From an uncultured Lentibacter sp. (GTDB lineage Bacteria; Pseudomonadota; Alphaproteobacteria; Rhodobacterales; Rhodobacteraceae), in the NCBI RefSeq assembly GCF_937123735.1, contig NZ_CAKZKL010000011.1:1833-65832 (forward strand): 64,000 nt of DNA. Direction: 5' to 3'. A program made the position numbers and the translations under genes. Below, one piece after another: positions 8,279 through 44,860 of the stretch. The notes below the pieces were generated by a model. It saw nothing but the letters and a program-made list of their open reading frames with translations, did not search any database and had not been told where the DNA came from. How positions within the stretch are numbered: position 1 is the first letter of the stretch; each line of letters begins with the position of its first letter.

Positions 8279-10093
8279 TTATGCAATAAGATTAACGGTG
8301 CCGGCGTGATCTCCACCACGCAACGCCGATGCCGCAGCGGTTTCCCCACCGCGTTGAGAGCTTCTGTCTGAAGAAACGCTTGAGCTATGTTTTTGCTTGC
8401 CATTTTGTGGCTGCCCCTGCCCAGACGGCGGATGATGAAATCCCGACATCGACGCTGACATCGAGCTCAGACGAAAGCCCGCCGCATCCAACATTTGCGC
8501 CAATCTATCTTCAGCGCCAATCAACACGCGGGAAGCTGCGGTGGTTTCTGTAACGATGCGAACTTGTGTATCATCTCCGCGAAACTCCAGGCTCACGCTC
8601 ATATCTCCCAAGTTTTTTGGCCGTAGCGAAAAATCATAACGTGCCACGCCCTCGCTGTGCATCTTCTCAATATGCGCGACCAGTTTTTGCCCCCATTGGG
8701 CGTCGCGCATATTCAATGCAATCGCTGTTCTCAACACTTGCGTTTGGAGTTGCGCCAGAGGTTGATTTTGCGCCTGTGATGGCGCGCCGCGTTCCATTTG
8801 CCCAAGCTCGGGCTTGGCTGGAACGGCTGAAGCTGGCGCAGACTCGCTATTCGTGGTCGAAACTTCCTCGCCCTCAAAAGCCAGCTTGAGCACAAAACGC
8901 TCGGGCTGTTGCTCTGGCTGTAGCTCTGGCGAAGGCAACGAATGGTTGGTGTCCTTTGCGCCTGTCATATCTGGGGCTGCACTGGCAAGATCCGGCTGGC
9001 CAAGCGGCCCTTGGCCCAAGTAGCGGGCAAATTGCGACAGGGCCGGTTCTGGCTTGGCATTGTCTGTGGCGTCGGCATCTGCCAGCTTGACCAGGGGGGC
9101 TTTGGCGTCAGCAAGAATTGTCTCCTCAGCACGCACCTTTGAGCCTGAAGCCTTGTCGCTGCTCGCAAGTTTTGAGTGAGGTGCCACGAGCGGCGCGACC
9201 AAACGCGCTTCGTGCGATTGCTCTTCTGAGGGGGTGACCTCAAGCTCAGTGGTCGGTGCAGCCGGCACAGCGCCCGCAACCTTATCTCTTATCTTGTCCA
9301 CGGAAGCTTCATGTCGCAGACTGGTACCAATGGGTTCAGGTGTCGGCATTTGCGGGGGCGTGCTGTTGTCTGCCTTGAGCGAATGCGCATTGTGCATGGC
9401 ACTGCTGAGAGCAGCTTCAGCAGTCGCGGTAGAAAACGTCTTTGCGGGCGATGGAGCGAGCCGCGCGGATGTTGACGCTTGTGCCGAATTCGTGTGCTCC
9501 AGCACGTCTTGCTCCGGCGTCACAAAGCCGAGCGCCTTAGAATTTTGAACAGATAGGGTCTCTAGTTTGGGCCTTGAAGCAGTATCTACAACCGCAAATT
9601 TCTCGGTTCTTTTCTCACTATTGGAATCAGTCGATCCCAGGAGTGCGCCCTGCCCTGCGCCCACTGCGTCATCGCGAAACTGCACTGGAGGAGTATCATC
9701 AGCACTCAGCAATAGCGGACCAGTTTCTGGCGTAATAAGATCAAGACCTCGTTTAGCACCCGAGCTCACAGTTTCAGCGGCAGGCACAACAGCGGCAAGC
9801 GGTTCTGCTGGTGTTAATTTCACATCAACAATCTCAGAAGCCTCTGTGAGGTCTAACGCGTCCGCCTCACCAAAGGTGGCTTCTTGCCCTTGGGCCAAGA
9901 GTTGTTCAAACGTGTTCTGATGATCGCTTTGCTCATTCGCTTCGCCATCTTGATGTGAGGCAACGACATTTCTTGCAACACTGACATTTGGCGCGCCAAG
10001 TGTGGATTTCAGAGGCGGCATTTCCTCAAATGCAGTTTTTTGCCCCGCGTCCTTGGGAAGCGCAATATCTGCCGCTGATCCAACACTGTTCAT
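8279..10093 (-). CDS. fliK: flagellar hook-length control protein FliK
   Basis: A long Ala/Pro/Ser/Glu-rich disordered region, with a C-terminal Flg_hook-type domain (LRPKNLGDMSVSLEFRGDDTQVRIVTETTAASRVL). It sits after fliJ. Confidence 0.8.
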   Translation of the reverse strand: MNSVGSAADIALPKDAGQKTAFEEMPPLKSTLGAPNVSVARNVVASHQDGEANEQSDHQNTFEQLLAQGQEATFGEADALDLTEASEIVDVKLTPAEPLAAVVPAAETVSSGAKRGLDLITPETGPLLLSADDTPPVQFRDDAVGAGQGALLGSTDSNSEKRTEKFAVVDTASRPKLETLSVQNSKALGFVTPEQDVLEHTNSAQASTSARLAPSPAKTFSTATAEAALSSAMHNAHSLKADNSTPPQMPTPEPIGTSLRHEASVDKIRDKVAGAVPAAPTTELEVTPSEEQSHEARLVAPLVAPHSKLASSDKASGSKVRAEETILADAKAPLVKLADADATDNAKPEPALSQFARYLGQGPLGQPDLASAAPDMTGAKDTNHSLPSPELQPEQQPERFVLKLAFEGEEVSTTNSESAPASAVPAKPELGQMERGAPSQAQNQPLAQLQTQVLRTAIALNMRDAQWGQKLVAHIEKMHSEGVARYDFSLRPKNLGDMSVSLEFRGDDTQVRIVTETTAASRVLIGAEDRLAQMLDAAGFRLSSMSASMSGFHHPPSGQGQPQNGKQKHSSSVSSDRSSQRGGETAAASALRGGDHAGTVNLIA

Positions 10094-20134: not shown

Positions 20135-20950
20135 TCATCGCGTCAACTTTTCAACGAGATCCGAATTGGCCTGAAGAACGCGCGCAGCCCCGCTAAACTG
20201 TTGTTGTGCACGGATCATTACAGTCATTTCTTGAGTAATATCAACGTTTGACCCCTCAAGAGCCCCTGCCTCGATCGACCCAAAGCCGTTCTGACCGCCG
20301 ACCCCAATGAGCGGTTCTCCGGATTGACCAGACTGTGCGAAACGCGCGGACCCAACATTGCGCAAACCACCCAAGTTTGAGAAAGTGGCCAGTGCCAGTT
20401 GGCCAACCTCTTCAACATTTTTATTTCCATAAGTCACGGTCACAACACCGTCTGCACTCACTTCAAGTTGGCTCATGGTATCGCCTTCCTCAGACTTAAA
20501 AGGAACCTGAATCGTGGTTAGCGTAGCCCCAGCAGCTCCATCTTCCGATGCAACCACGCCACGCACAAATGAGCCATCTGACGCGCGCAAAAATCCGTCT
20601 TTGTCTAATGACATCTCTCCATTTCGCGTGAACAAATTTGAATCTGAAACCTCGCCTGCGGCATCAGGCGCGGAGGTGACGAACATGCCTTGGCCAACCA
20701 ACGCCAGGTTAAGGGCGCCTGCGCGGTTTACAATTGTGCCTTGGCCATCGTTGCGCCTTGTGTCTGATATTGAGCTACCAAAACCTGTTGTTGTGCGAGC
20801 TACGGTATCAGGTGTTGCAGACCCATAGATATCAGTAAATGACACGTCGCTTTTCTTAAAACCTGTTGAGCCAGAGTTCGCGATATTGTTTGAAACAACC
20901 GCGATTTCATGCATAGCAGTTGCCATTCCCGCCCTGATAATTCCGTACAT
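20135..20950 (-). CDS. minimal flagellar hook/rod-family (FlgE/FlgG-like) protein, 271 aa
   Basis: The N-terminus carries VVSNNIANSGSTGFKK. The C-terminus carries GALEGSNVDITQEMTVMIRAQQQFSGAARVLQ. The middle region is FlgE-like (LALVGQGMFV...FTRNGEMSLDKDGFL). It is a separate gene from flgB, C, E, F and G. Confidence 0.75.
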   Translation of the reverse strand: MYGIIRAGMATAMHEIAVVSNNIANSGSTGFKKSDVSFTDIYGSATPDTVARTTTGFGSSISDTRRNDGQGTIVNRAGALNLALVGQGMFVTSAPDAAGEVSDSNLFTRNGEMSLDKDGFLRASDGSFVRGVVASEDGAAGATLTTIQVPFKSEEGDTMSQLEVSADGVVTVTYGNKNVEEVGQLALATFSNLGGLRNVGSARFAQSGQSGEPLIGVGGQNGFGSIEAGALEGSNVDITQEMTVMIRAQQQFSGAARVLQANSDLVEKLTR

Positions 20951-24136: not shown

Positions 24137-27100
24137 TCAAATTGCGTTCATCAAGGTATCAAGAAGCTCTTTTGCCGTGCTCAAGACACGCGCGAGAGCC
24201 TGGTAGGCTTGTTGCTGCTCCAACAGCCGTGCGGCTTCGGTGTCCAGGTTCACACCTGAGAATTCTGACTCCATCTCAGCAGCAGCATCTCGCACAGCCA
24301 AGGACGATGCCGCCGCAATTGTGCTGGCCTGCACCTTCGCGCCTGCATCAGTGATCAAGACACTAAAACTTTGCGAAAACCCGCCTTTGCCACTCTGTAA
24401 ATCAGTTGTTTGCAAACCAAGCAGTTTGGCCACATTGCGGCCGTCTCCTTCGCCGGCAGTATTGGGTGCAATACTAAAGCGATCGCCCGTTTTCACCGCA
24501 CCGCTTATCACCAAGTCTACACCAGCCACGGAGAAGCGACCCGTTTCATCCAGATACCGGCTTGCGATGGAGTGCCCGCTTTCCCGGTCCAAAATTTCAA
24601 TACGTCCAGACGCACCATCTTCAACAACGATATCAAGTGGCCGCTGCAACCCAACTTCAATATCAGACGTATCTCTCTCAAATTGAGCCGAAAGCCTGCG
24701 CGCCCCATCCCCGGTCAGAATAACAATCAGCTCTTCAGGCGGCAGGTTTTTCAAAGAAATACGTTCAGAAATCAAACCACCAGACGTCGCCTGCACATCA
24801 ATCGCACTTTGGTCTAGCGCGCTTAAACGCAAGCCATCTTGATTGACCAAGATTTGATTTGGAGAGGTCACAAAGCCAAGCGCCCGGCCTCCTTCACTCG
24901 GAAGGATACGCAAGGCCCCAGCTGTTCCAGCCTCCGTGCGGCGAATGGTGATCTGAACTTCAGTGTCGGAAACGGAGTTCACAGACAGTGTTGTGCCCAA
25001 AGGCAAATCTGGGTTTTGTGCGATCTGAACAACGTCATTCTCGTCAAGAGTCAGCGAGATATCGTATTGTGTGTCATCAATCTCAAGCGACAGAACGTGA
25101 GGCTGGCTGCTCAACGTGTTTTGCAAAAACGAACGGCCCGTCAGAACTTCTAATTGCTGGTCCACTTCAAGGCCAAATGCGGTCATGGAAGCGGTGCTCG
25201 CATCGGACGAAACTCTCAAGGTCTGCCCGGTTTCAAAGCCTTGCGACGCACTGACAACAAGCTTGAAACTGTCGTCAAAACCAGCCGTTAACCGCTCCGC
25301 TTCAGGGCCCTCAACAACAACTTCGCCATCCACCATGCGCAGAACAAAACTTTGCTCTCCTAACTCTAAAGTTATGGTTTCGCCATCGCTGGGCAAACCA
25401 TCAACATCAGAAAAACTGCGCCCGCTCAACACTGGCACAGGCGCCAAAGACCGCAGATCAGTTGCAAGCGCCTGAGCAATCGCCTGGGAGCTCAACTCAT
25501 CCAGATCCGAGCTGAGAACCGAGGCAGATAAGCGCGCGCTTGATCCGTCCGTTTCAAGTGAAACCGAAAACGATGCCGCCGCGGCGCTTGCAAAGCTCCC
25601 ATCGGGGCGGGCTTCGTTCCCGTCGATCCCTTCGATTGCCCTAAAGCTCAACTGCTGCCAACTGCCCGCAGGATCAGCTGCGCGGCTGATGAAGCCCTGA
25701 TGAAGCGGATCGGCGGTGCTCGTTTTGGTGCCTCCAGCGCCACTCACCGTAAAGCTGCGCGCGGCAGACAGGCTCACCTCGCCACCAAAGCGCGCAAATT
25801 GATTTGCAGCTGTTCCAAGAAGGACGGGGCTATCGCTTCGCAGCTGGCCTTGCGCCCCAACAGCAAAAGCCTCAAAGCCCTCCCCCTCGACCACGATATC
25901 ACTCAACAAAATATCGGAACCTGCTTCGTTGACCAATACCAGCTGGCCCAAATCAGAGGACAGATGCGCGGATATACCCGTGTTGCTGGTTTGTGCGTTT
26001 ATCAGCTCAACCATGTCACTGAGATCGCCGGCGCGGGCGTAACCTTGGATGGCCACTGGGTCTTTGTTTTCCCCTGTTAGGCCAAAACTGACAATTCCCT
26101 CCGGTATCGCTTGCAACAAGACTCGTGTTTCGGCTTTTGCCCTGATCCCCAAATCTGAACTCAGCGTGTTGACTTGCTCTGCGATATAATCGGCCATAAC
26201 CCCTTGAGGGATCTCAAGTTTGGTCTCTGGATCACTTCCAACGGCAATCGAAAGCGTTTGCGCCGGAGTAGCGACGCTTACCGGAAGAGAACTTCCAGCC
26301 CATACAGGAGGTGCAAACCCTTCCCCCGAAACTTTGAGACCATAGGCCCCACCCGGCGTTGCACGCGAAACCTCTGTTGATTGGAAACCCCCACTGCCCA
26401 CCCCGTTCAAATGTTCAGCCCGATATTCAACCGTCTCTAGAAATCCATTCGCAGGGGTCAGATATCGCATCACCTCGCTGTCGCTGAGCGGCGTTCCGGC
26501 GATTTGACGCCCTTCACGGGTAAACACTTGAATTTGCGAACCGATGTCATTTTTTTGCGAAATGCTGCCTGTAACGGTTTCATCGGCTTGCAAGACGGCC
26601 GCGCTCAGTCCGGCAATTCCACTTGCAATCGACAGAACGCCCGCTTCACCACTTGCAAACAAGCCGAGATCCGCAAAGCTGGCCCCACTTGATGATTGCA
26701 AAATTCCAGCATTGAGCATGTCGGCCAACTCCGACAAGTTGACGTTGCTCTCAGTGCTGCGGCGCTCCGCAAAAGCCGCAGTATCAAACTGGTGGCTCAC
26801 CTCATCAAGCGTCAGGGTTATACTGCTCAAGTTGGCAAATTGGGCGTCGGCCAAAGTAAACGACGCGAGATCTTGCCGCGTGAGCGAGAACAGATCCACC
26901 TCAGATACATCCGCCGGGATAACACCAATAACACCGTCCGAGCGGAACCGTGTTGCCGCCGCAATACCAATGTCGTTGGCGAGCAGCTGCGTGAGCATTG
27001 GAAGGTCGCTCGGCGCCTGTGCTGAAAATGCCTCAAACGCCAAATTCGCAGAGCCTGTGTTGCTGACATCGGAGGTTGTAAGAAGTGGGCCGGCCGCTGC

Positions 27101-28387
27101 GAACTCTTGCGGACGGGTCAACAAGAACTGCATATTTGCAGCCTTTCCACGCGACAATTCCAGCGCGAACGTGTCACCATCAGCCGGCTGTCCCACCAAC
27201 GACACATTTAGACCCGCAAAAACAAATCCGTTTTGCCCCTGTGCGACCACATCACCTGCCTCATCGCGGCCTTGCCACATTGAGTTGGCAGAATTGTAAA
27301 CGATTTCTAGCTCCACATCTTCTTCTGGCAAGGGCCCTACAGACGAGACATAGCCGGTTACCGACCCGAGGTTTGTCGCAGAGGGTTCAAGCATAAAGCT
27401 ATCCAAACCGAACAGCGCCCCTCCCGTTTTTCCGTCAAGGCTGACACCTTCCGAATGCACAGAGTTCAGCTCGCTGGCCACTTTGCGTGCAAGAGCATCC
27501 AATTCTCGGGAAGTTTGCGAGACCGTCTCATATGCTGCGATCAAACCCGCTAATCCACCAGAGGTCATTTGCTGGGTCTGCAAGGCGCCCCCCCCGGCAC
27601 CGATATACACATCGATCTGGCTGTCTTGCGCGATAACCGAGATTTGGCTGGCAGTTTTTCCCTCCAAGAGCACGGGGCCACTCCCAGTTGCTCCGAGTGT
27701 CAAAGTTGTATCACCGCGCACGTTGTATCGGGCCGAAACGCCTGCGTAGTCGGCAATCGCAGCAATAGACTTGTCACGTTGATCCATCAGGGCGTTGGAG
27801 GCCTTGCCACTCCCTCCGGCAGAAATAAGGCGCGCTTGGATATCCGCCAAACCAGCCAACTCGGTGTTTAAAGAGCCCACCATGTTGTCAACTTCGCTGG
27901 TGATTGCCGATTGAAAAGTTTGCAATGAACCAGAGAGCGACTGAAACGCTGATGCCAAAGAACGCCCCTGCTCCAGCGCGACAACGCGCCCAGAGAGATC
28001 ACCTGGCGCTTGGGCGATACTGCTGATGCCGTTGAAGAACTCGTTTATTGAAAATGTCAGATCATAGTCTTCTGGCAGCAGGATGCTCTCAAGTGTCGTA
28101 AGCGCTTCTTTATACGACTCTGCTCTTTCGTAATCAGATGAGGTGTCTCGCGCGCGTGAGGCGATAAAGCTGTCAAAGGCTCGCGACACATCCGACACAC
28201 GCACACCAAGACCAGCTTGGTCCGATATACTCAGTATTCCGCCTTGTGTTGCTGAAACCTCTTCCATGGAAGCTTCTCGGCGGCGATACCCTTCAGTGTT
28301 GAGATTGGCAATATTTTGGCCCGTGACACTAAGGGCTTTTCGATAGGCCTGAATCCCGCTGCTACCGATGTCAAACAAGCCAGCCAT
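24137..28387 (-). CDS. flgK: hook-filament junction protein FlgK (HAP1), giant 1416-aa form
   Basis: The N-terminus (GLFDIGSSGIQAYRKALSVTGQNIANLNTEGYRRR) and C-terminus (VNLDTEAARLLEQQQAYQALARVLSTAKELLDTLMN) are canonical FlgK. About 1000 aa of extra central sequence lies between them. Confidence 0.9.
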   Translation of the reverse strand: MAGLFDIGSSGIQAYRKALSVTGQNIANLNTEGYRRREASMEEVSATQGGILSISDQAGLGVRVSDVSRAFDSFIASRARDTSSDYERAESYKEALTTLESILLPEDYDLTFSINEFFNGISSIAQAPGDLSGRVVALEQGRSLASAFQSLSGSLQTFQSAITSEVDNMVGSLNTELAGLADIQARLISAGGSGKASNALMDQRDKSIAAIADYAGVSARYNVRGDTTLTLGATGSGPVLLEGKTASQISVIAQDSQIDVYIGAGGGALQTQQMTSGGLAGLIAAYETVSQTSRELDALARKVASELNSVHSEGVSLDGKTGGALFGLDSFMLEPSATNLGSVTGYVSSVGPLPEEDVELEIVYNSANSMWQGRDEAGDVVAQGQNGFVFAGLNVSLVGQPADGDTFALELSRGKAANMQFLLTRPQEFAAAGPLLTTSDVSNTGSANLAFEAFSAQAPSDLPMLTQLLANDIGIAAATRFRSDGVIGVIPADVSEVDLFSLTRQDLASFTLADAQFANLSSITLTLDEVSHQFDTAAFAERRSTESNVNLSELADMLNAGILQSSSGASFADLGLFASGEAGVLSIASGIAGLSAAVLQADETVTGSISQKNDIGSQIQVFTREGRQIAGTPLSDSEVMRYLTPANGFLETVEYRAEHLNGVGSGGFQSTEVSRATPGGAYGLKVSGEGFAPPVWAGSSLPVSVATPAQTLSIAVGSDPETKLEIPQGVMADYIAEQVNTLSSDLGIRAKAETRVLLQAIPEGIVSFGLTGENKDPVAIQGYARAGDLSDMVELINAQTSNTGISAHLSSDLGQLVLVNEAGSDILLSDIVVEGEGFEAFAVGAQGQLRSDSPVLLGTAANQFARFGGEVSLSAARSFTVSGAGGTKTSTADPLHQGFISRAADPAGSWQQLSFRAIEGIDGNEARPDGSFASAAAASFSVSLETDGSSARLSASVLSSDLDELSSQAIAQALATDLRSLAPVPVLSGRSFSDVDGLPSDGETITLELGEQSFVLRMVDGEVVVEGPEAERLTAGFDDSFKLVVSASQGFETGQTLRVSSDASTASMTAFGLEVDQQLEVLTGRSFLQNTLSSQPHVLSLEIDDTQYDISLTLDENDVVQIAQNPDLPLGTTLSVNSVSDTEVQITIRRTEAGTAGALRILPSEGGRALGFVTSPNQILVNQDGLRLSALDQSAIDVQATSGGLISERISLKNLPPEELIVILTGDGARRLSAQFERDTSDIEVGLQRPLDIVVEDGASGRIEILDRESGHSIASRYLDETGRFSVAGVDLVISGAVKTGDRFSIAPNTAGEGDGRNVAKLLGLQTTDLQSGKGGFSQSFSVLITDAGAKVQASTIAAASSLAVRDAAAEMESEFSGVNLDTEAARLLEQQQAYQALARVLSTAKELLDTLMNAI

Positions 28388-29886: not shown

Positions 29887-29898
29887 CGACGTCTCCTA

Positions 29899-30579
29899 TC
29901 AATAAGGCGACAAGGTGGTGACAGCGCGTTGCAGCCAGCCCGCCTTGCCAGTGTCCGCCACATCACCAGCGCCAATGTATTTGATTTCAGCATTGGCTAT
30001 CCTATCAGATAGGATAACGTTATTTGAGGAAATATCTTCAGGACGCACGATCCCGCGAACGCGAATATATTCATCCCCGTTGTTCAATGTCAGTTTCTTT
30101 TGACCAAGAATTTCCAGGTTTCCGCCCTCAAAGACACGCGCAACAGTAACCGACATCTGGCCTGTGAGACTGTTTGATTGCGCAGCCGACCCCGAGCCCG
30201 AGAAGGACTGCGTTGTGCCTGCGCTCAGCCCCTCTTCCAGAGCGTTCAAGCCAAACACGTTCGGGAGATTCATATCTACGTTGGCAGATTTTCCATTGGC
30301 TGCGTTTTGCGATTTGGTCGCTTGAAAGCGTTCGGAAAAAGACACTGTCAGAATATCGCCGACTCGGCTGGCCCGCCTGTCGGTGGCGAAGAGGCCAGCT
30401 TGCGACGGATTGTAAATTGCCCCGGAAGGAAAGCCAGCCTGAATGGGAGTGGTTTGGGCCGGCATAACCGGCAGGTAGCTCAAACTGTTTTGCTCTTCCA
30501 CATAGCTGGCACCGCAAGCCGCGAGAAAAAGCGGCCACAACAGTATAACACCCGATCGCACGCAAACCGTCATCGTCAT
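29899..30579 (-). CDS. flgH: flagellar L-ring lipoprotein FlgH
   Basis: Lipobox LAAC, plus typical FlgH sequence (RASRVGDILTVSFSE...YIRVRGIVRPEDIS). Confidence 0.93.
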   Translation of the reverse strand: MTMTVCVRSGVILLWPLFLAACGASYVEEQNSLSYLPVMPAQTTPIQAGFPSGAIYNPSQAGLFATDRRASRVGDILTVSFSERFQATKSQNAANGKSANVDMNLPNVFGLNALEEGLSAGTTQSFSGSGSAAQSNSLTGQMSVTVARVFEGGNLEILGQKKLTLNNGDEYIRVRGIVRPEDISSNNVILSDRIANAEIKYIGAGDVADTGKAGWLQRAVTTLSPY

Positions 30580-30590
30580 ATCCTCTGCCT

Positions 30591-31379
30591 TTACAGATTA
30601 TTTGAGAGATAGCGCATCATCTCATCGACCGATGAAATCGACTTCGAGCTTACCTCATATGCACGTTGCGTTTCGATCATATCCACAAGCTGCTGAACAA
30701 CGTTGACGTTTGAGCCTTCCAAATATCCCTGGACAAGTTTGCCAAAGCCCCCGTTCAGGGGGGCTCCCTCAATGGGCGCTCCGCTTGCTGGCGTTTCAAC
30801 TGCAAATGTTTCACCGATTGGCTGCAAGCCCCGCGGGTTTGCAAAGTTGGCCAAGGTCAATTGCCCCACTTCTTGCGGCGCGGTCTCTCCTGCCAACATG
30901 ACAGACACAATTCCGTCTGAGGAAATATTGATTTCGCTTACATTGTCTGGAATTTGAATCTCAGGCTGAACGACATATCCGCTTGAAGTGGTCAATGTCC
31001 CCTCTCCATTGCGCGAGAAGGTGCCGTTGCGTGTGTAGCCCATGCGCCCGTCCGGCATCAAAACTTGAAAGAAACCCGACCCGTCAATGGCCAAATCAAG
31101 CGAATTGTCCGTGCTCACAAGGCCACCTTGGGAATACAGCTTCTGGGTGTTTACCAAGTTCACACCGGTCCCGACAGTGGAGGCCGAGGTCAGCATATTG
31201 CCGTCCGCAGTTTGCGCGCCCCCTGAGCGGGTGACCTGGTACAGCAAGCTTTCGAAATTCACACGATCACGCTTGAAGCCTGTTGTGTTCACGTTTGCCA
31301 GATTGTTGGCAATCACTTGCATCTTGGTTTGTTGTGCGTTGAGGCCTGTCTTGGCCACATGCATTGCATTTGAAGACAT
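30591..31379 (-). CDS. flgG: distal rod protein FlgG
   Basis: A 262-aa protein with MHVAKTGLNAQQTKMQVIANNLANVNTTGFKRDR at the N-terminus and LEGSNVNVVQQLVDMIETQRAYE at the C-terminus. Confidence 0.96.
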   Translation of the reverse strand: MSSNAMHVAKTGLNAQQTKMQVIANNLANVNTTGFKRDRVNFESLLYQVTRSGGAQTADGNMLTSASTVGTGVNLVNTQKLYSQGGLVSTDNSLDLAIDGSGFFQVLMPDGRMGYTRNGTFSRNGEGTLTTSSGYVVQPEIQIPDNVSEINISSDGIVSVMLAGETAPQEVGQLTLANFANPRGLQPIGETFAVETPASGAPIEGAPLNGGFGKLVQGYLEGSNVNVVQQLVDMIETQRAYEVSSKSISSVDEMMRYLSNNL

Positions 31380-31438: not shown

Positions 31439-32197
31439 TCAGTTTTGCGGCAACCGCATCAACTCTGCACCGCCGCGATCAATATCTTCTGCGAGCTTGA
31501 TAAATTTGACCCCCATTTCAAACTGGCGCTGGGTTTCAATAGAGTGAATCAGTTCTGATACCGTATCAACGTTGGAAGCCTCCAAGACACCTTGAGCGAC
31601 CTTGACTTGTTGGTCAGGTGCGGGAACCGAGCCGTCAGGGCGGCGAATTTGGCCATCCAACCCTTTGCTCAATCGCTCATCTGTTGCAGACGTTGTGCCC
31701 AAAAAATCGACCTGAAGAAACTGGCCAGCCGGCGCGTCTAGTGGGGTCACCGAAATTTCACCACTTTCTGAAAGCTTGAACTCAGCAAACGGCGGCAGCT
31801 CTATCGGTTCCAGGTTTTCGTTTAAGATGCGCTCTTGCGCGCCGTTTACCAAAAATCCGTCTGCATCAATTGACAGATCACCCCGCCGAGACAACGCAAT
31901 CTCTCCATTGAGAGGCTGCACATACAAGTAACCGTCTGACACCACCGCGATGTCCATTTCAGAACCGAGTTGGCGCAAGGCCCCCTGCCGTGTCGAAAAC
32001 CCCGCCTTCCCAGTTTCCAAATTCATGGCCCGCGCAGAGGCTTGATCCATAGATTGGATGAAGGCTGTGCCGCCATCATTGGGCAAGTCTTTACGAAAGC
32101 CCGGAATGTCGACACTGCTCAGATTGTTCGCCGTTGTTGAGCGCACATCATGCAGGTTTTTCAACGTGTTCAACGCTGTATGTATCATCCTGTCCAT
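31439..32197 (-). CDS. flgF: proximal rod protein FlgF
   Basis: A 252-aa rod-family protein with matching N- and C-termini (LEASNVDTVSELIHSIETQRQFE). It sits between flgE and flgG. Confidence 0.9.
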   Translation of the reverse strand: MDRMIHTALNTLKNLHDVRSTTANNLSSVDIPGFRKDLPNDGGTAFIQSMDQASARAMNLETGKAGFSTRQGALRQLGSEMDIAVVSDGYLYVQPLNGEIALSRRGDLSIDADGFLVNGAQERILNENLEPIELPPFAEFKLSESGEISVTPLDAPAGQFLQVDFLGTTSATDERLSKGLDGQIRRPDGSVPAPDQQVKVAQGVLEASNVDTVSELIHSIETQRQFEMGVKFIKLAEDIDRGGAELMRLPQN

Positions 32198-32220: not shown

Positions 32221-35200
32221 TTACATACGGATATTGATGATGGTCTGGGTGAGGCTCGTGGTTGTTTCAATCGCTTTTGCAGAGGCCTGATAATTTCGCT
32301 GTGCCGTGATCAAGTTAACCAGTTCCTCCGTGATATCGACGTTTGAGCGCTCGAGTGAACCCGACAGAATATTCCCGAAGCCCTCTGCGCCAGCCTCACC
32401 AACCTGAGGTGTGCCTGAAACCGCAGTTTCAACGTAGGTCGCGTTTCCAATTTGTTTCAAACCGTTTTGGTTGTTGAAGTTCGCCACAACAATCTTGCCA
32501 AGAGGATTGTTTTGCCCATTTGTATAATTTGCACGGATGGTGCCGGAACTGTCAATTTCAAGGCCATCCAAGCGCCCAGAAGTGAAACCATCCTGCTCGA
32601 CCGACAGCACCGAAAATGGCTGCGCAAACTGTGTTGACGCCGCGTAGTCAATATCAAGTGAAATCGAAAAGCCTTCTGCTTGTTGCTCATAGCGAACATT
32701 GTTTTTGGGGCTGATGAGCTTACCTGTTTTGTCAAAGGTCAGCTCGCCTTCATCAATGTAGAGCGGGAAATAGCCATCCACCATATCTTCTGGAGGGGTG
32801 GTAACAACTGTGCCCTCAGGGTCGACATAGAGCGCGACGCCTTCAGCGTTTGTTGCCTGCACCAGATTGAATATTTTCGGGACCGAACCAACACCCAGCG
32901 GAACATCATCCAAACCCAGGCGAGAGGCGCCTTTGACTTTGATTGTCGATCCGTCGCCCGTTGTCCCCGTCTGGAAGACAAAGCCATTGTCGGCCGTCGA
33001 ATAGCGCACCGTCACGCCACCAACAGTTTGCCCTGTTACTGGGTCTGAAATCTGGTTGATTCTTTCCTCGAGTGCGGTGGCCAAAGTGGTGCCAACATAG
33101 TTGCCCGGCGGCACATCAATGATACCAGCAATGCCATTTACAGAAACATTGAAGCGGTTTTCGCCGTTGTTGGATGTCAGGCGGAACACTTCAGTCAAGT
33201 CGCCCTGGGCTGCGCGGCCAGTCGCAATTGCAGGTTCAGCCGCAAGACCGCTGCCTTCTTGGAAGGTAAAGTCCTGCTTGGACGCACCAAAGCCAAACAG
33301 TGCGTTTTCACCCCCGCCAATAATCCGGGAATCCAGCGCGATCGTCTCACTTTGGTCAGCACTCCCATCCCCGCTGGCCGGAATAATTCTGCGACCAATC
33401 TGGATATTGGAAGATTTCTGATTTGTGCTGACGCCAAGCGCCCCGTTGGCATCAATGCTTTCGCCTGTCGTGCCACTCGCAACAGTAAACGATTTCGTAT
33501 CGCCATTGTAACTGACGGACACACCATACCGTTTGTCGTTCAGCTGGATTTCTTCACCGTCTGCAATAAACGGCTCGGTAGACAAGATCTCTCCCCCGCG
33601 AATGAGAACTGTCTCAGCATTGCCCCCCGCAGGGATACCAAGCCCGTTTGTCCCATCGGCATCCGCAGATCCGTAAACAGTGAAGGCGTTAAAGTTACTG
33701 CCTGTGCCCGTTCCCAAAACCGTGCGATCAACATTGAACTGCAAGCGCTGATTGGTTTCATCATAGGATACTTTGATGGGAGGATTGTTTTCATCAACCC
33801 AGGCCACTTTGCTGGTTGTTGCGTTTGTGACGGTCTGAGCGCTCACACTCCCCAAATCAGTGTTCACATTGGCCGCCGTGATAACAATCTGATCGCTGCC
33901 ATTTTTGGAGAACACAACACCTGCGGCCGAGGTTGCTGTCAGCGCATTCAACCCGGTTACCACCGCGTCAATATCTGCAAAGTTGGCATCTTGAAAATCG
34001 GCGGTGACAGTTTTGTCTCCAATCGTGAAGCGCGTGAACTTGTTGTTCAATTCGGCAAAGCCGAGGGCTGAAAAGCTATGCACTTCGGCAACGGCTGTGT
34101 CCGCGGCTGTTGTTTCAGTCGCTGCAATTGCGGCCCCTGAAACAGGCAGGCCAAGCGCAGTCAAGGAAGCGCCGCTTGTGTCGATCATCGTCTGACCGAA
34201 GGCGATTGCCTCTTCCACGGAAAGCTCACCCGAGTTGCGTTGCGCTGCTGTGCCAATTTCGCGCATCACAATTCGCTTGGAATTGAACGTTTCAAAGGCA
34301 CCATCAACAGTTGCTTTGGCCCCTTCAAAGAAGGCCTCCAGATCTTGTGAGGGCTCATAAAGAAGCGACACATCGGTGCCATCCAGTTCAAAGCCAGATT
34401 CTGGCAAGTTCAGGCCCGAGGTGTCGATCCGCAACATTCGGTAGCCTGCATCCATGGCTACATTTTCAAAGATACGCAGCTCGCGCCCATTCAGGTGATC
34501 TTGAAAATCTGTGTTCGTAGAGGCGCCCACCAGACGGATAGAGGAGGATGTGGGTGCTCCAAATTCAGTTGGAACATAGACTGTCAAGGTGTTTTGCGTG
34601 TTGTCGTATACAACCGACTTACCACCAGAGCTTACGAGTGCACCCTCAGCATCAACCGATTTCAGCTCAGTGTTCTTATCATAAACAGAAAGACTGGGGC
34701 GCTTGCCATAGTATGAGTAGGCTAGGAAACGCTCTTGCGAAACCGTGCCGCTGTCGGTGTCTTGGGTGTGCGTAATGGTGACCACTTCAGGCTCAGGATG
34801 TGGTTCAGCCATCTCGCTGCCAATACTACGCACAAACAGCCGCCCTTCAACGCCGAGCGTTGCAGCCCCGGTGCCAAGAGTGCCATCGCTGTCATAGATA
34901 TAGTCGTTCATTTCATCTACGAGGCGGGTTTGCGTATGCGCCAAAAACTCTTCGCGCGTGAAATCCGGTGATGCGCCCTCAACGTCCATGCCCATCAGAT
35001 CTGAAACAGATGTGGGCTGAAGAAGGTCTATCTCGATTTTCTTGTCACCCAGACCTTGCAAAGAGCCGTCGGGCGCCAATTTGAAGAGATCAATCGTCAA
35101 CCGATCGTCGATATTCTGGAAAATTTGAATTTTCTTGTCATCACCATAGGCTTCGTTGATGGCCCGTTCCACTTCCGCTGCCAGCTGTTCAGCGTTGTAT

Positions 35201-36297
35201 TTTCCCGGGCGCAGATCAATGGAGACCGGTGCATCGCTGTCATCCACGTTCACGGTAAGAAAATCTTTACCCCAGAACAAATCACTGTCGGCATTGCCGG
35301 CTTCTCGAGTGGCCTTGAACAGCAGCGGATCCGTGACAATCTCTACGAGCTTGTCGCCTTCCTCGCCAAAATCAAATGCGCTTTGCTCGCCTTGAAGGGT
35401 GGCAGGTTGTGACTCGACCTGCTGGTTGAGGTCATCCAGCTTGTAAAGCGGAGAGCCCTTTCCTTCGAGGAAGTAGTTGTCATCTGGAACAGAGGTCGTT
35501 TGGTTCCCGAAACGGTCAATGAATATTTGCTTACCCGTATCATCCACCGCATTCACCAAGTCGGGTTCAATGATGGTATCATTGATGACCAGCCGGGTAT
35601 CATATTTGTTGGTTGGGTCTTCCGCAGAAGCATTTTGTGTCTTGATAAAATAGATTGTCGCGATCGTCGGGTTACCAAGGTCATCGAAGATCGTAATTGA
35701 CGTGGAGTTGGTGTAACTGTCCGCATCATTCGGATCAAACCTGTAACCATCGGCAAACTGATCCAGATCGGTGACAACCGGCGCATCCGCCGGCACGTTC
35801 ACACCAAGGTCAATTTTACCTGTCGCCTTGGGTTCTCCGGATGTCACCGGAAGCTGCAAAGGCACCGCGCTGTCTAGATCTTTCGCCGTGACAGACCCAT
35901 CTAGGTTGACAGGGTAGGTCATCAGATACTGACCGGCACTATCAACAACGTATCGGTCATTATCGACGTTAAATGACCCGTTCCTGGTGTAAACTGTCTG
36001 AGTAGACGTGAGCGACGGCTTCAACGCAAAGAAACCTTGCCCCGAAATGGCCAAATCAAGAGCATTCAGAGACGAGGCAATGTTGCCTTGGGTGAACTGC
36101 TGCTTGATCCCCTTCAAGATGGTGCCGGAACCGATTGAGGACGATGCGTTTTGCAACGGGGACGTCGCAAAGATATCACCAAATTCCGCGCGGCTTCTCT
36201 TAAAACCGGTCGTGCCGACGTTGGCAATATTGTTTGATGTGGCTGAAATATCGGCCTGCGCACCATTAAGGCCGGTCAATGCGGTATAAAATGACAT
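32221..36297 (-). CDS. flgE: flagellar hook protein FlgE, giant 1358-aa form
   Basis: The N-terminus (MSFYTALTGLNGAQADISATSNNIANVGTTGFKRSR) and C-terminus (LERSNVDITEELVNLITAQRNYQASAKAIETT) are canonical FlgE. It sits between flgD and flgF. A very large central insertion is present. Confidence 0.88.
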   Translation of the reverse strand: MSFYTALTGLNGAQADISATSNNIANVGTTGFKRSRAEFGDIFATSPLQNASSSIGSGTILKGIKQQFTQGNIASSLNALDLAISGQGFFALKPSLTSTQTVYTRNGSFNVDNDRYVVDSAGQYLMTYPVNLDGSVTAKDLDSAVPLQLPVTSGEPKATGKIDLGVNVPADAPVVTDLDQFADGYRFDPNDADSYTNSTSITIFDDLGNPTIATIYFIKTQNASAEDPTNKYDTRLVINDTIIEPDLVNAVDDTGKQIFIDRFGNQTTSVPDDNYFLEGKGSPLYKLDDLNQQVESQPATLQGEQSAFDFGEEGDKLVEIVTDPLLFKATREAGNADSDLFWGKDFLTVNVDDSDAPVSIDLRPGKYNAEQLAAEVERAINEAYGDDKKIQIFQNIDDRLTIDLFKLAPDGSLQGLGDKKIEIDLLQPTSVSDLMGMDVEGASPDFTREEFLAHTQTRLVDEMNDYIYDSDGTLGTGAATLGVEGRLFVRSIGSEMAEPHPEPEVVTITHTQDTDSGTVSQERFLAYSYYGKRPSLSVYDKNTELKSVDAEGALVSSGGKSVVYDNTQNTLTVYVPTEFGAPTSSSIRLVGASTNTDFQDHLNGRELRIFENVAMDAGYRMLRIDTSGLNLPESGFELDGTDVSLLYEPSQDLEAFFEGAKATVDGAFETFNSKRIVMREIGTAAQRNSGELSVEEAIAFGQTMIDTSGASLTALGLPVSGAAIAATETTAADTAVAEVHSFSALGFAELNNKFTRFTIGDKTVTADFQDANFADIDAVVTGLNALTATSAAGVVFSKNGSDQIVITAANVNTDLGSVSAQTVTNATTSKVAWVDENNPPIKVSYDETNQRLQFNVDRTVLGTGTGSNFNAFTVYGSADADGTNGLGIPAGGNAETVLIRGGEILSTEPFIADGEEIQLNDKRYGVSVSYNGDTKSFTVASGTTGESIDANGALGVSTNQKSSNIQIGRRIIPASGDGSADQSETIALDSRIIGGGENALFGFGASKQDFTFQEGSGLAAEPAIATGRAAQGDLTEVFRLTSNNGENRFNVSVNGIAGIIDVPPGNYVGTTLATALEERINQISDPVTGQTVGGVTVRYSTADNGFVFQTGTTGDGSTIKVKGASRLGLDDVPLGVGSVPKIFNLVQATNAEGVALYVDPEGTVVTTPPEDMVDGYFPLYIDEGELTFDKTGKLISPKNNVRYEQQAEGFSISLDIDYAASTQFAQPFSVLSVEQDGFTSGRLDGLEIDSSGTIRANYTNGQNNPLGKIVVANFNNQNGLKQIGNATYVETAVSGTPQVGEAGAEGFGNILSGSLERSNVDITEELVNLITAQRNYQASAKAIETTTSLTQTIINIRM

Positions 36298-36354
36298 AGG
36301 TTACCCTCTCGTCTCGTGTTTTCCAGCTCTACAGAGCTTCAATGTTCCAGCGCC

Positions 36355-37056
36355 TTAGCGAATGCGGCTCACTGTGCTTGCATCAATCGTGCCATAATCC
36401 TCAACATCCAACGTTGGAGCATTCTCGGCTTCGCCATAGGAGGAGGCAGAAAGCACACGCGCATAGATTGACGGACCCATCGTCTCCATCCCTGCGCCCG
36501 TATTGGCAGCCACATCCACTTTAATTTTCCTGTTCCCCTCTCGCAGCGCTGTGGGGATATCTGTCCAGCTAAACCCAACCAGGCCTGTGCCTTGTGGCCC
36601 CAGGTCATCCGAATGAAGCAATTCACCTGTTGTGGCATCTGTAAATGAAACCCGCGTTGCGCTGGCTGCTTGGGGCAGCTCAAAGACCCCGTGTATTTCA
36701 CCGTTGTCATCTGGACGGGCCATTGAACCGGGAACCAAAACAGAATGACCGAGCAAAGTAGATGCCGTTGCTATCCGTGTTTGAGACATCTCGGCAGATA
36801 GAGATTTCAGGTTTGTATTGATTTCCTCAATACCTGAAACAGTTGAAAACTGGGCCATTTGGGCGATAAAATCACCGTTTTCCATCGGCGCAAAGGGATC
36901 TTGGTTTTGCAGTTGTGCGGTCATAAGTTGCAAAAAGTCGTCCTGACCCAACTTGTCATCACTGGCCCGCTCTGCCGCCGACTTTTGTGTGTTAATCCCA
37001 AGTTTGTCAAAAATTGCTTGCTGCGCCGCTGCGCCCGTTGAGTCGATATTGGACAT
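36355..37056 (-). CDS. flgD: hook capping/assembly protein FlgD
   Basis: FlgD N-terminal motif LGQDDFLQLMTAQLQNQDPFAPM. It sits between flgC and flgE. Confidence 0.9.
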   Translation of the reverse strand: MSNIDSTGAAAQQAIFDKLGINTQKSAAERASDDKLGQDDFLQLMTAQLQNQDPFAPMENGDFIAQMAQFSTVSGIEEINTNLKSLSAEMSQTRIATASTLLGHSVLVPGSMARPDDNGEIHGVFELPQAASATRVSFTDATTGELLHSDDLGPQGTGLVGFSWTDIPTALREGNRKIKVDVAANTGAGMETMGPSIYARVLSASSYGEAENAPTLDVEDYGTIDASTVSRIR

Positions 37057-37070
37057 GTCTTTTCCTTTTC

Positions 37071-37487
37071 CTAGCGGCCCATGTTGACGGTGCGCATCAT
37101 AAGCGAGCGCAAAGTCGACACGACTTCCAAATTGTTTTGATACTGGCGCGAGGCTTCAAGCATCTCGACCATTTCTTCTTCGACATCCACTGCTGCGCCC
37201 CAAACATAACCTTCGTCATCGGCCTTGGGGTGCTCGGGTTGATAAACTTTGCTGGGTTCTCGGTTTGCTGTCACGATCCCAGCAACATTTACCGTTGCAA
37301 CACCGCTGGTCTTCGCGTGGCTTGCATATTCCGTTTCAAAAAGCGGCTTGATCGCTTGATAAGCCTCTTCGCGGCTGCCCGCGACACTGTTGGCGTTTGC
37401 GATATTACTGGCGACGGTATTCAAGCGCGTCATTTGCGAAGACATCGCCCGGCTTGCTATATCAAAAATATTCTCAATACCCGACAT
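37071..37487 (-). CDS. flgC: proximal rod protein FlgC
   Basis: A 138-aa protein with typical FlgC termini (ASRAMSSQMTRLNTVASNIANANS...MVEMLEASRQYQNNLEV). Confidence 0.95.
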   Translation of the reverse strand: MSGIENIFDIASRAMSSQMTRLNTVASNIANANSVAGSREEAYQAIKPLFETEYASHAKTSGVATVNVAGIVTANREPSKVYQPEHPKADDEGYVWGAAVDVEEEMVEMLEASRQYQNNLEVVSTLRSLMMRTVNMGR

Positions 37488-37488
37488 A

Positions 37489-37875
37489 TCACTCCCCCTT
37501 TATTGCAGCCATAAGACCCGAAACCTTGCGATTCAGAAAAGTTAACGAAGTCTGATAGCGCACCACATTTTCGGAAAACTCCATTTGCTCAACCGCAAGC
37601 TCGACCGTATTTCCATCCAGCGCAGGGTTTACCGGATCGCGATATTGCAAACGCCCAGCGTGAAGGTTCTCTGGCCGCGCAACATGTTTGTCATCAGATG
37701 TGCTCAAAAGCCCGCCGGGCAAAGCTTTTGCGAGGGTCGCCTCAAAATCGACATCTCTGGCCTTAAAATTTGGGGTCGCCGCATTTGCAATATTCGATGC
37801 CAAAATCGTATTGCGCTTTGAACGCAACGCTAAAGCCTCATCATGAATACCAAAGTGTTGTCTAATTCCGTCCAT
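37489..37875 (-). CDS. flgB: proximal rod protein FlgB
   Basis: A 128-aa protein (LRSKRNTILASNIANAATPNFKARD...FSENVVRYQTSLTFL). It is the first gene of the flg operon. Confidence 0.93.
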   Translation of the reverse strand: MDGIRQHFGIHDEALALRSKRNTILASNIANAATPNFKARDVDFEATLAKALPGGLLSTSDDKHVARPENLHAGRLQYRDPVNPALDGNTVELAVEQMEFSENVVRYQTSLTFLNRKVSGLMAAIKGE

Positions 37876-44145: not shown

Positions 44146-44161
44146 TGCCTTATCATGCCCA
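44146..44161 (-). promoter_or_regulatory. weak candidate sigma54 promoter for flhA-flhF-flhG-fliA
   Basis: The minus strand reads TGGGCATGATAAGGCA, which has GG-N10-GC spacing but poor flanking matches. An alternative is aGGCTTTACAGCAGCt at 44103-44117. Neither is convincing. Confidence 0.25.
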
Positions 44162-44255
44162 CGCGGAAATCTGCGCACGCCTCAGATATGCAAAGCCCAT
44201 GCCAACCCCGTATTTCGGGCGGTTTTCTCCAACCAATCGAGCCAATCAAGAAAGC

Positions 44256-44853: not shown

Positions 44854-44860
44854 GGCCGCA

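What the first reader, a model, noticed from the sequence alone, without database searches (positions are those of the whole stretch)
32221..36297. Giant hook protein FlgE (1358 aa) with a ~900-aa central insertion
The first ~150 and last ~250 residues are canonical FlgE, and the gene sits in the normal flgD-flgE-flgF position. The protein is more than three times the length of enterobacterial FlgE (about 400 aa). It is well above the large epsilonproteobacterial hooks (about 850 aa, from memory). The insert has no TM helix and is Asp/Thr/Gly/Asn-rich. It contains several segments that recall the 'flagellin hook IN' motif, such as VSIDLRPGKYNAEQLAAEVERAINEAYG, FTIGDKTVTADFQDANFADIDAVVTGLNALTA and IIDVPPGNYVGTTLATALEERINQISD. 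A hook built from about 120 copies of this subunit would carry an enormous outer-domain layer. That could give a stiffened, sheathed-like or adhesive hook. I know of no characterised hook of this size.
Basis: partly seen in the sequence, partly recalled or inferred. Interest (0 to 1): 0.75.

Follow-up and report, generated by a model that had tools for sequence, protein, structure and literature searches.

The report
Giant flagellar hook protein FlgE
This is an intact 144-kDa flagellar hook protein, about three times normal size because a roughly 890-residue block of extra folded domains is inserted into its outer domain. It belongs to a conserved but apparently undescribed family found in several groups of marine bacteria.

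Summary
Window 36297..32221 (minus strand) encodes a 1358-aa FlgE between flgD and flgF, in a complete γ-type ("fla3"/R. sphaeroides Fla1-like) flagellar cluster. Residues 1-269 and 1156-1358 are canonical D0/D1/D2. An 886-aa (93.6 kDa) insertion sits inside D2.

It is not an assembly artefact. Sixty-seven species genomes carry intact 1239-1763-aa orthologues. They include roseobacters (Nereida closest, Planktomarina, HIMB11), SAR116, PS1 and an Octadecabacter plasmid. These are almost always next to a giant FlgK.

AlphaFold predicts a well-folded multi-domain insert (pLDDT 87.8, pTM 0.79). Only D2 finds PDB matches. The insert is unrelated to Campylobacter D3/D4 and to the FlgK insert. It was found only in FlgE proteins.

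The core is 86-100% identical across orders, more conserved than FlgG, although synonymous sites are saturated. A central ~100-aa module is hypervariable and varies in copy number.

The best reading is a thick (about 33-35 nm), reinforced hook with a variable exposed tip. No paper describing this class was found. I rate it a new variant of a known kind, of moderate to high interest.

The parts
32221..36297 (-). flgE coding sequence: 1358 aa plus stop, 144.0 kDa, pI 4.24, no Cys
36304..36310 (-). GAGAGGG Shine-Dalgarno-like site upstream of the flgE ATG
   Evidence: read directly from the sequence
35491..36297 (-). Residues 1-269: canonical N-terminal D0, Dc, D1 and the N-terminal half of D2. 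Residues 1-150 are 89-100% identical across orders.
32833..35490 (-). Residues 270-1155: 886-aa insertion within D2 (93.6 kDa), predicted to be folded and multi-domain
34840..35490 (-). Residues 270-486: conserved proximal N-arm of the insert. It is alpha/beta, with predicted helices at 369-383 and 448-465. Residues 251-400 are 68-97% identical across lineages.
34174..34839 (-). Residues 487-708: beta-rich middle domain, moderately variable (33-72% identity)
33811..34173 (-). Residues 709-829: Ala/Thr-rich disordered linker (709-739) followed by a hypervariable module of about 100 aa (beta-beta-alpha-alpha-beta-beta-beta). There is one copy here and two in the 1452-aa and 1680-aa homologues. 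It is weakly Flagellin_IN-like.
32833..33810 (-). Residues 830-1155: conserved C-arm of the insert, mostly beta with a helix at 1069-1080; 56-92% identical across lineages
32224..32832 (-). Residues 1156-1358: C-terminal half of D2, then D1 and D0. Residues 1226-1358 are 86-100% identical across orders.
24137..28387 (-). flgK encoding a giant hook-filament junction protein (1416 aa) with a Pfam Flagellin_IN match at 778-820. It co-occurs with giant FlgE in related loci.
36355..37056 (-). flgD (hook cap, 233 aa, normal size) immediately upstream
31439..32197 (-). flgF (252 aa) immediately downstream
8279..10093 (-). fliK (hook-length control protein, 604 aa)

Best explanation
This is the functional hook subunit of a gamma-type (fla3 / R. 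sphaeroides Fla1-like) flagellum; polar placement is inferred from the FlhF/FlhG genes and the Fla1 analogy. Its D0, D1 and D2 domains build the usual 11-protofilament hook tube. The 886-aa insertion leaves and re-enters D2 and folds into several extra domains, which add outer concentric layers to the hook. The two sequence-proximal arms (about 270-486 and 830-1155) are strongly conserved. I infer that they make subunit-to-subunit lattice contacts that thicken and stiffen the hook. By mass scaling from the Salmonella and Campylobacter hooks, the diameter would be about 33-35 nm. The sequence-central segment is a flexible linker followed by a module of about 100 aa. It is hypervariable and varies in copy number, so I infer that it is the outermost, solvent-exposed tip and is under diversifying pressure. 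The giant FlgK next door would match this wide hook at the hook-filament junction. Shown here: gene identity, intactness, fold confidence, conservation pattern and distribution. Inferred: assembly into the hook, the radial order of the domains, stiffening, and the cause of the variability.
For: The best PDB sequence matches are FlgE chains of 434-437 aa, on the termini only. Foldseek recognises D2 with probability 1.0. Intact orthologues of 1239-1763 aa occur in 67 species genomes, including isolates and complete genomes, and on the O. arcticus plasmid. AlphaFold gives mean pLDDT 87.8 and pTM 0.79 for residues 140-1240, with only 709-739 disordered. The core is 86-100% identical and the proximal insert 68-97%, against 69-92% for FlgG in the four locus groups with a flanking flgG, while four-fold degenerate sites are saturated. 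That indicates strong purifying selection on the insert arms as well as the core. The cassette at 700-825 has 5-8% identity and 58-79% gaps, with no tblastn hit outside the closest group. The module is duplicated in longer homologues. Giant FlgK co-occurs. Precedents: C. jejuni D3/D4 widen the hook from 180 to 280 A and make it more robust (PMC5097172). R. sphaeroides FlgK1 (1363 aa) forms a visibly bulky HAP region (PMC7277832).
Against: I have no protein-level or imaging evidence for any carrier. Motility of HIMB11 and CHAB-I-5 is only predicted from genomes, and the Octadecabacter type strains are described as non-motile. The tools return no coordinates or PAE, so the radial order of the insert domains and any lattice contacts are inferred from sequence topology and conservation only. 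Bulky outer layers could hinder hook bending rather than usefully stiffen it. A second small FlgE/F/G paralogue (271 aa) exists in the window.
Confidence: 0.6

Rival explanations
1. The protein builds the hook, but the extra domains are mainly an ecological surface layer rather than a mechanical reinforcement. They could shield the conserved hook from flagellotropic phages or grazers, or mediate adhesion.
For: The central module is hypervariable and varies in copy number. Foldseek against viral models gives local matches of probability >=0.98 to predicted myovirus tail-sheath and tail proteins. This fits generic decoration domains on helical polymers. The insert is acidic, has no Cys and no TM helix, so it is compatible with export.
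Against: About 540 of the 886 insert residues (the two arms) are conserved as strongly as, or more strongly than, FlgG and FlgI across orders. That is not expected for a purely antigenic or adhesive coat. No adhesin, lectin or enzyme family was detected. The insert has no phage sequence relative.
Confidence: 0.22
2. The giant FlgE is not the main hook subunit. The 271-aa FlgE/F/G-like paralogue (20950..20135, minus strand) or another FlgE elsewhere in the genome builds the hook. The giant protein would be accessory, a minor component or unused.
For: A D2-less FlgE/F/G-family ORF is present. It has orthologues of 47-56% identity near giant flgE in several roseobacter loci. C. jejuni also has two hook paralogues, of which only one is used (PMC5069557).
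Against: The giant gene occupies the canonical flgD-flgE-flgF slot. Its core is under extreme purifying selection. In C. jejuni it is the large paralogue that forms the hook. The SAR116 and PS1 loci have giant FlgE, and no small-paralogue orthologue was found within their 10-kb flanks.
Confidence: 0.07
3. The long ORF is an assembly chimera, a pseudogene, or a precursor that is processed to a subunit of about 45 kDa.
For: None found. One related MAG (L039) has a FlgE ORF truncated at 733 aa, which shows that breaks do occur in draft assemblies.
Against: There are 67 independent intact orthologues with the same architecture, including complete genomes and a finished plasmid. An identical protein was recovered from other assemblies (P0001). 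The insert is confidently folded and under purifying selection. Pfam found no intein or protease domain, and there is no Cys.
Confidence: 0.03

Closest known systems
Campylobacter jejuni / Helicobacter FlgE with extra domains D3 and D4 (865 aa; PDB 5jxl, 5az4)
   Same: It is a hook subunit enlarged by domains nested inside D2, which add concentric outer layers. In C. jejuni these widen the hook from 180 to 280 A and make it more robust (PMC5097172). It is the best functional analogue.
   Different: The insert here is about twice as large (886 aa). It shows no structural similarity to D3/D4 (Foldseek probability 0.01 for 5jxl and 5az4). The protein fails the epsilon FlgE model (155 bits against a cut-off of 412.85). 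The insert has a hypervariable, copy-number-variable central module. The hosts are marine alphaproteobacteria with a gamma-type flagellar system. This looks like an independent expansion.
Rhodobacter (Cereibacter) sphaeroides Fla1 flagellum: FlgK1 of 1363 aa with a 'bulky HAP region' and a straight hook (PMC7277832)
   Same: The flagellar cluster is of the same type: FlhF/FlhG/FliA, sigma-54 activators, FlgT and FlgP-like H-ring genes, a rod-binding-only FlgJ and a giant FlgK of about 1400 aa with conserved ends. It corresponds to the horizontally spread fla3 type of Rhodobacterales (PMC12363192).
   Different: R. sphaeroides FlgE1 is only 423 aa, whereas FlgE here is 1358 aa. The FlgE insert shows no profile-level relationship to the FlgK insert.
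Giant flagellins of Bermanella marisrubri and Oleibacter marinus (>1000 aa; PMC6248924)
   Same: This is a marine bacterial axial flagellar protein, enlarged several-fold by outer-domain insertions between conserved termini. In those species the giant flagellins produce visibly thicker structures.
   Different: It is a different protein (filament rather than hook) and a different host class (Gammaproteobacteria). No flagellin gene is present in this window to compare.
Gamma-proteobacterial-type FlgE of 434-437 aa (PDB 9yee, 8z5u, 8z5y 'L-hook of the polar flagellum'; P. aeruginosa D2, 9wx3)
   Same: These are the closest solved relatives of the core. They match residues 4-234 and the C-terminus at E 1e-69 to 1e-72. 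D2 matches structurally with probability 1.0.
   Different: They lack the 886-aa insertion entirely.

Membership tests
FlgE, flagellar hook protein (FlgE/F/G subfamily TIGR03506) | N-terminal D0 rod motif (PF00460) and C-terminal D0 helix (PF06429) | tested here: met
   PF00460 at 3-33 (E 2.3e-6) and PF06429 at 1312-1356 (E 2.9e-16). TIGR03506 scores 289.6 bits against a cut-off of 70.25.
FlgE, flagellar hook protein (FlgE/F/G subfamily TIGR03506) | D1 domain and the FlgE-specific D2 domain | tested here: met
   PF22692 at 83-135. PF07559 at 183-269 and at 1156-1238. Foldseek matches to FlgE D2 of P. aeruginosa, the polar-flagellum hook and Salmonella have probability 1.0.
FlgE, flagellar hook protein (FlgE/F/G subfamily TIGR03506) | Position between flgD (hook cap) and flgF/flgG in the flg operon | tested here: met
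   flgB-C-D-E-F-G-H-I-J-K-L on the minus strand. The same order is found on the O. arcticus plasmid.
FlgE, flagellar hook protein (FlgE/F/G subfamily TIGR03506) | Score above the curated cut-off of an NCBIfam FlgE equivalog model | tested here: not met
   The best is NF004238 at 382.9 bits against a cut-off of 400. The match is split into two stretches by the insertion. This explains the generic RefSeq name 'flagellar hook-basal body complex protein'.
FlgE, flagellar hook protein (FlgE/F/G subfamily TIGR03506) | Polymerises into the hook between rod and filament | not testable with these tools
   This needs purified hooks, mass spectrometry or cryo-EM.
Epsilon-proteobacterial large FlgE (TIGR02489; domains D3/D4) | Sequence match above the model cut-off | tested here: not met
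   155.1 bits against a cut-off of 412.85, on the termini only.
Epsilon-proteobacterial large FlgE (TIGR02489; domains D3/D4) | Extra domains with the D3/D4 folds | tested here: not met
   Foldseek against 5jxl and 5az4 gives probability 0.01 and rmsd 50-58 A.
Flagellin_IN motif (PF07196) | Pfam match at or near the gathering threshold (22.7 bits) | tested here: not met
   There is no hit in the whole protein or in eight fragments at E<=10. Only 2 of 12 homologous module copies match, with best E=0.032.
Flagellin_IN motif (PF07196) | Profile-profile similarity to a bona fide IN motif (FlgK 778-820) | tested here: inconclusive
   The cassette module aligns in register with the FlgK IN core, but at E=1.5e-3 and probability 17%. 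The two conserved 'AINEA' and 'RINQI' segments do not align to it.
fla3-type flagellar gene cluster of Rhodobacterales (= R. sphaeroides Fla1 type) | Gamma-type gene set: FlhF, FlhG, FliA, sigma-54 activators, H-ring FlgT/FlgP, PomA-like stator and a rod-binding-only FlgJ | tested here: met
   The FlgP-like match is weak (LPP20, E 7.5e-4).
fla3-type flagellar gene cluster of Rhodobacterales (= R. sphaeroides Fla1 type) | Giant FlgK with conserved termini | tested here: met
   FlgK is 1416 aa; TIGR02492 scores 254 bits against a cut-off of 170.75. It compares with 1363 aa in R. sphaeroides (PMC7277832).
fla3-type flagellar gene cluster of Rhodobacterales (= R. sphaeroides Fla1 type) | Phylogenetic placement with reference fla3 clusters (FlhA/FliF/FlgH/FlgI tree) | not tested
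   Support is indirect only. The cluster is co-linear with that on the Octadecabacter arcticus plasmid, with 58.6% FlgE identity. PMC5030684 appears to count Octadecabacter among strains with a sole fla3 cluster.
Spirochete-type lysinoalanine cross-linked FlgE | Conserved Cys in D2 that forms the cross-link | tested here: not met
   The protein contains no cysteine.

The most novel reading that the evidence does not exclude
Several groups of marine alphaproteobacteria (RCA/Planktomarina, HIMB11 and relatives, SAR116, PS1) may share a distinct flagellar architecture. About 120 copies of a 140-190-kDa FlgE, plus a 120-220-kDa FlgK, would build a drive shaft at least 33 nm thick. Its outer lattice would be made of folds with no solved relative, and it would carry a hypervariable tip. 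The extreme constraint on the FlgE core, which exceeds that on the distal rod, would reflect a new mechanical regime. One possibility is a rigid, non-buckling hook for very small, fast cells driven by a PomA-like (possibly Na+-type) stator.
Probability: 0.35. Interest if true: 0.8.

Novelty: new variant of a known kind. Interest (0 to 1): 0.6.

Why it matters
The hook is the flagellum's universal joint, and its stiffness sets how cells steer, for example by run-reverse-flick. All mechanistic models rest on subunits of 400-865 aa. A family of 1240-1760-aa hook proteins extends the known size range about two-fold, and the insert has no solved structural relative. The family occurs in marine bacterioplankton lineages (roseobacters, SAR116, PS1) whose motility has been predicted only from genomes in the papers I could read. 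Cultured carriers exist (P. temperata RCA23, HIMB11, Nereida ignava, Seohaeicola, IMCC14465), so the prediction of a thick hook can be tested directly by EM. The pattern of a hyper-conserved core with a hypervariable tip is also a clean system for asking how outer domains constrain a helical polymer.

Tried and rejected
- BLASTP self-comparison of FlgE, and FlgE against FlgK, found no internal repeats and no shared insert.
- Profile-profile FlgE against FlgK aligned only the D0 helices, so I rejected a common origin of the two giant inserts.
- Pfam on eight fragments at E<=10 found nothing in the insert.
- The first AlphaFold run, with 36 close homologues, was poor (pLDDT 53.8). Foldseek on that model was uninformative. 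I replaced it with a 59-sequence alignment that included divergent representatives.
- tblastn of the insert against phage genomes gave no match. I therefore did not pursue a phage origin, despite local Foldseek hits to predicted tail-sheath models. The aligned region of my model is not reported for those hits.
- Recent HGT or gene conversion as the cause of the 86-100% core identity is rejected, because four-fold degenerate sites are saturated.
- Chimera and pseudogene explanations are rejected.
- Seven of my ten literature searches targeted giant or large FlgE, hook outer domains, or flagella in carrier organisms. None found a description of this class. Subscription-only papers were not searchable.


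Full report
**Observation**

The window holds an ATG-to-stop ORF of 1358 codons at exactly 32221..36297, on the minus strand. A GAGAGGG ribosome-binding-like site lies 7 nt upstream of the ATG.

Pfam finds the full FlgE domain set, split in two: Flg_bb_rod at 3-33, D1 at 83-135, FlgE_D2 at 183-269 and again at 1156-1238, and Flg_bbr_C at 1312-1356. NCBIfam FlgE models match residues 1-~250 and ~1185-1357. The FlgE/F/G subfamily model passes its cut-off. The equivalog models fall just short because the match is interrupted.

The neighbours are flgB, flgC and flgD upstream, and flgF, G, H, I, J, K and L downstream. So this is FlgE with an 886-aa insertion (residues 270-1155, 93.6 kDa) inside D2. 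The whole protein is 144.0 kDa with pI 4.24. It has no cysteine and no predicted TM helix.

**Genomic context**

The 64-kb window is essentially one flagellar regulon of the gamma-proteobacterial type. It encodes:
- FlhA, FlhF, a MinD/FlhG-like ATPase and FliA;
- FlhB, FliR, FliP, FliM, FliL and a 604-aa FliK;
- FliI, FliH, FliG, FliF, a sigma-54 activator and FliS;
- a second sigma-54 activator, FlgA, FliD, a PomA-like stator protein and a 407-aa MotB;
- FlgT and an LPP20/FlgP-like lipoprotein.

FlgJ is a 116-aa rod-binding domain only. FlgK is also giant at 1416 aa, with a real Pfam Flagellin_IN match at 778-820.

This is the make-up of the R. sphaeroides Fla1 flagellum. That flagellum has an H-ring and a 1363-aa FlgK1 that forms a bulky HAP region, but its FlgE1 has only 423 aa (PMC7277832). 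In the Rhodobacterales nomenclature this is the horizontally spread fla3 type (PMC12363192).

A co-linear cluster with a 1410-aa FlgE and a 1436-aa FlgK lies on plasmid pOA238_118 of Octadecabacter arcticus 238. RefSeq calls that FlgE simply 'flagellar hook-basal body complex protein'.

**It is real, and it is a family**

A search of 5.8 billion proteins returned 4214 hits. The best 120 are all 1127-1680 aa long. The named ones come from Planktomarina temperata, Lentibacter algarum, Marivivens and Paracoccaceae.

A scan of one genome per species found 299 relatives. Among the best 80, 67 have intact genes of 1239-1763 aa, and all start with MSFYTALTGLNG. They come from:
- roseobacters: Nereida ignava is closest at 88%; also Planktomarina, HIMB11, LSUCC0031 and Seohaeicola (1763 aa);
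- SAR116/Puniceispirillales;
- the PS1 clade/Parvibaculales, and IMCC14465;
- many single-cell genomes.

In the same loci FlgK is 1127-2037 aa. A chimera or pseudogene is therefore excluded.

A search with the insertion alone against 1.84 billion cluster representatives found only 353 relatives. Every relative of 800 aa or more aligns to FlgE core regions flanking the insert, most with recognisable FlgE termini, and they are 830-2492 aa long. The insert domains therefore appear to be specific to FlgE.

**Architecture of the insert**

BLAST finds no internal repeats and no similarity to the FlgK insert. Profile-profile comparison of the FlgE and FlgK families aligns only the D0 helices. The two giant axial proteins therefore expanded independently.

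A first AlphaFold run with 36 close homologues was poor (pLDDT 53.8). With 59 sequences that included divergent representatives, the model of residues 140-1240 is confident: mean pLDDT 87.8, pTM 0.79, and 698 residues at pLDDT >=90. From its secondary structure the parts are:
- the N-terminal half of D2;
- an alpha/beta N-arm (about 274-486, helices at 369-383 and 448-465);
- a beta-rich domain (about 487-703);
- a disordered Ala/Thr-rich linker (709-739);
- a small beta-beta-alpha-alpha-beta-beta-beta module (748-824, pLDDT 64-85);
- a largely beta C-arm (829-1139, helix at 1069-1080);
- the C-terminal half of D2.

Foldseek against the PDB recognises only D2. The hits are P. aeruginosa FlgE D2, the polar-flagellum hook, and Salmonella FlgE, all with probability 1.0. 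C. jejuni FlgE scores probability 0.01. No PDB sequence covers the insert.

Against predicted viral structures there are a few local matches, of probability >=0.98, to myovirus tail-sheath and tail proteins over 119-247 columns. The tool does not say which part of my model aligned. The insert also has no phage sequence relative. I treat this as a lead only.

**Conservation pattern**

Across 65 homologues, the core (1-150 and 1226-1358) is more than 90% identical. The insert arms are about 55-85% identical. The region 501-700 is 20-50% identical. The segment at about 700-825 has 5-8% identity with 58-79% gaps.

The variable segment is a module of about 100 aa. It is present once here and twice in the 1452-aa Lentibacter protein and in a 1680-aa homologue.

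The FlgE core is more conserved than any neighbouring gene. Against SAR116 loci it is 92-94% identical, compared with 69% for FlgG, 65% for FlgI and 60% for FlgC. Even insert residues 251-400 reach 76%. Four-fold degenerate sites in codons 1-150 are saturated (0.19-0.52 identity against about 0.26 expected at random), even where the protein is 100% identical. This is extreme purifying selection, not recent transfer or gene conversion. I have no firm explanation for why the core of a giant hook should be more constrained than the distal rod.

**The Flagellin_IN claim**

Each is a strand followed by a helix in the model.

The third segment lies in the hypervariable module. That module aligns in register with FlgK's true IN motif, but only at E=1.5e-3 and probability 17%. 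Pfam finds Flagellin_IN in 2 of 12 module copies at best E=0.032, and never in this protein. The resemblance is therefore suggestive for the cassette and unsupported for the other two segments.

**Mechanism**

The steps that are shown are gene identity, intactness, fold confidence, conservation and distribution. The rest is inference, mainly by analogy.

In flagellin and in C. jejuni FlgE, nested insertions place the sequence-central segment furthest from the axis. In C. jejuni, D3 and D4 add outer rings, widen the hook from 180 to 280 A and make it more robust (PMC5097172). I scaled cross-section with subunit mass. The references were 42 kDa for Salmonella FlgE (from my own knowledge) at 18 nm, and 92 kDa for C. 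jejuni FlgE (PMC5069557) at 28 nm. A 144-kDa subunit then predicts a hook of about 33-35 nm.

I propose that the conserved arms form an ordered outer lattice that reinforces the hook, and that the linker and variable module form an exposed tip under diversifying pressure. The giant FlgK would match this wide hook at the junction. About 120 subunits of this size would still cost only a small fraction of a filament (my estimate).

The rivals are: a mainly ecological coat; a role for the 271-aa FlgE/F/G paralogue; and processing. They are listed with their tests in the Rival explanations section.

**Novelty**

A 2016 structural paper calls the 865-aa C. jejuni FlgE 'one of the longest' hook proteins (PMC5069557). 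A 2022 review lists only the epsilon-proteobacterial D3/D4 as extra hook domains (PMC9254593). The giant-flagellin paper does not treat FlgE size. Seven of my ten literature searches were aimed at giant or large FlgE, hook outer domains, or flagella in the carrier organisms, and none found a description of this class. In the papers I read, motility of HIMB11 and CHAB-I-5 is only predicted from genomes.

The principle of enlarging axial proteins by outer-domain insertion is known, so I rate this a new variant of a known kind rather than categorically new. Several features make it worth an experimental look: its size, its unmatched folds, its spread across marine bacterioplankton lineages, and the unusual conservation pattern.

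Noticed in passing
window 24137-28387 (-): FlgK is also giant (1416 aa), with a true Pfam Flagellin_IN match at 778-820. In related loci FlgK is 1127-2037 aa and almost always accompanies giant FlgE. The FlgK and FlgE inserts show no profile-level relationship.
   Followed up: partly
window 32224-36297 (-) compared with 28750-31379 and 36355-37875: The FlgE core (86-100% identical across alphaproteobacterial orders) is more conserved than FlgG, FlgI, FlgC, FlgB, FlgD, FlgF and FlgH in the same loci. Four-fold degenerate sites are saturated. The extreme purifying selection is unexplained.
   Followed up: yes
window 20135-20950 (-): An extra 271-aa FlgE/F/G-family ORF has D0 and D1 but no D2, and lies apart from the flg operon. 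Orthologues of 47-56% identity lie a few kb from giant flgE in loci L003, L013, L027, L028, L030, L034 and L046. None was found within the 10-kb flanks of the SAR116 and PS1 loci.
   Followed up: partly
window 21071-22792 (+); L079 7836-9578: A CLC-type chloride channel gene with a CBS domain is embedded in the flagellar cluster. A chloride channel gene also lies next to fliD in the O. arcticus plasmid flagellar cluster, so the linkage may be conserved.
   Followed up: no
window 1-64000: No flagellin gene was detected in the 64-kb window, although fliD (50208-51824), fliS (18480-18851), flgL and the rest of the regulon are present. The size of the flagellin that goes with the giant hook is therefore unknown.
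   Followed up: partly
window 8279-10093 (-): The hook-length control protein FliK is 604 aa. It matches no NCBIfam model and matches Pfam only in its Flg_hook C-terminal domain. Its length might relate to hook length in this system.
   Followed up: no
window 44155-46003 (+), 51897-53922 (-): The window encodes the H-ring component FlgT and an LPP20/FlgP-like lipoprotein, a PomA-like stator protein, and an unusually long MotB (407 aa) whose two matched parts are separated by an unmatched middle.
   Followed up: no
window 37967-38871 (+), and 34-2538 (-): Several ORFs inside the flagellar cluster have no Pfam or NCBIfam match. These are 185 aa and 116 aa between flgB and fliA, and 122, 121, 264 and 287 aa at the left end. 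They may be lineage-specific flagellar proteins or chaperones.
   Followed up: no
L039 10001-12202: In one Puniceispirillum MAG the FlgE reading frame stops after 733 aa, while FlgK (1620 aa) is intact. It is either a draft-assembly error or a real disruption.
   Followed up: no
L079 (O. arcticus plasmid pOA238_118) 4335-6769 and 28958-31532: IS110, ISAs1 and IS21 transposase genes flank and interrupt the plasmid-borne flagellar cluster. They lie where flhF would be expected, next to the FlhG-like ATPase gene. The literature describes the Octadecabacter type strains as non-motile, which would fit this.
   Followed up: no
model mc71ee20e9396 (FlgE residues 140-1240): Foldseek against predicted viral structures gave local matches of probability >=0.98 to myovirus tail-sheath and tail proteins (119-247 columns). 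The tool does not report which region of the query aligned.
   Followed up: partly
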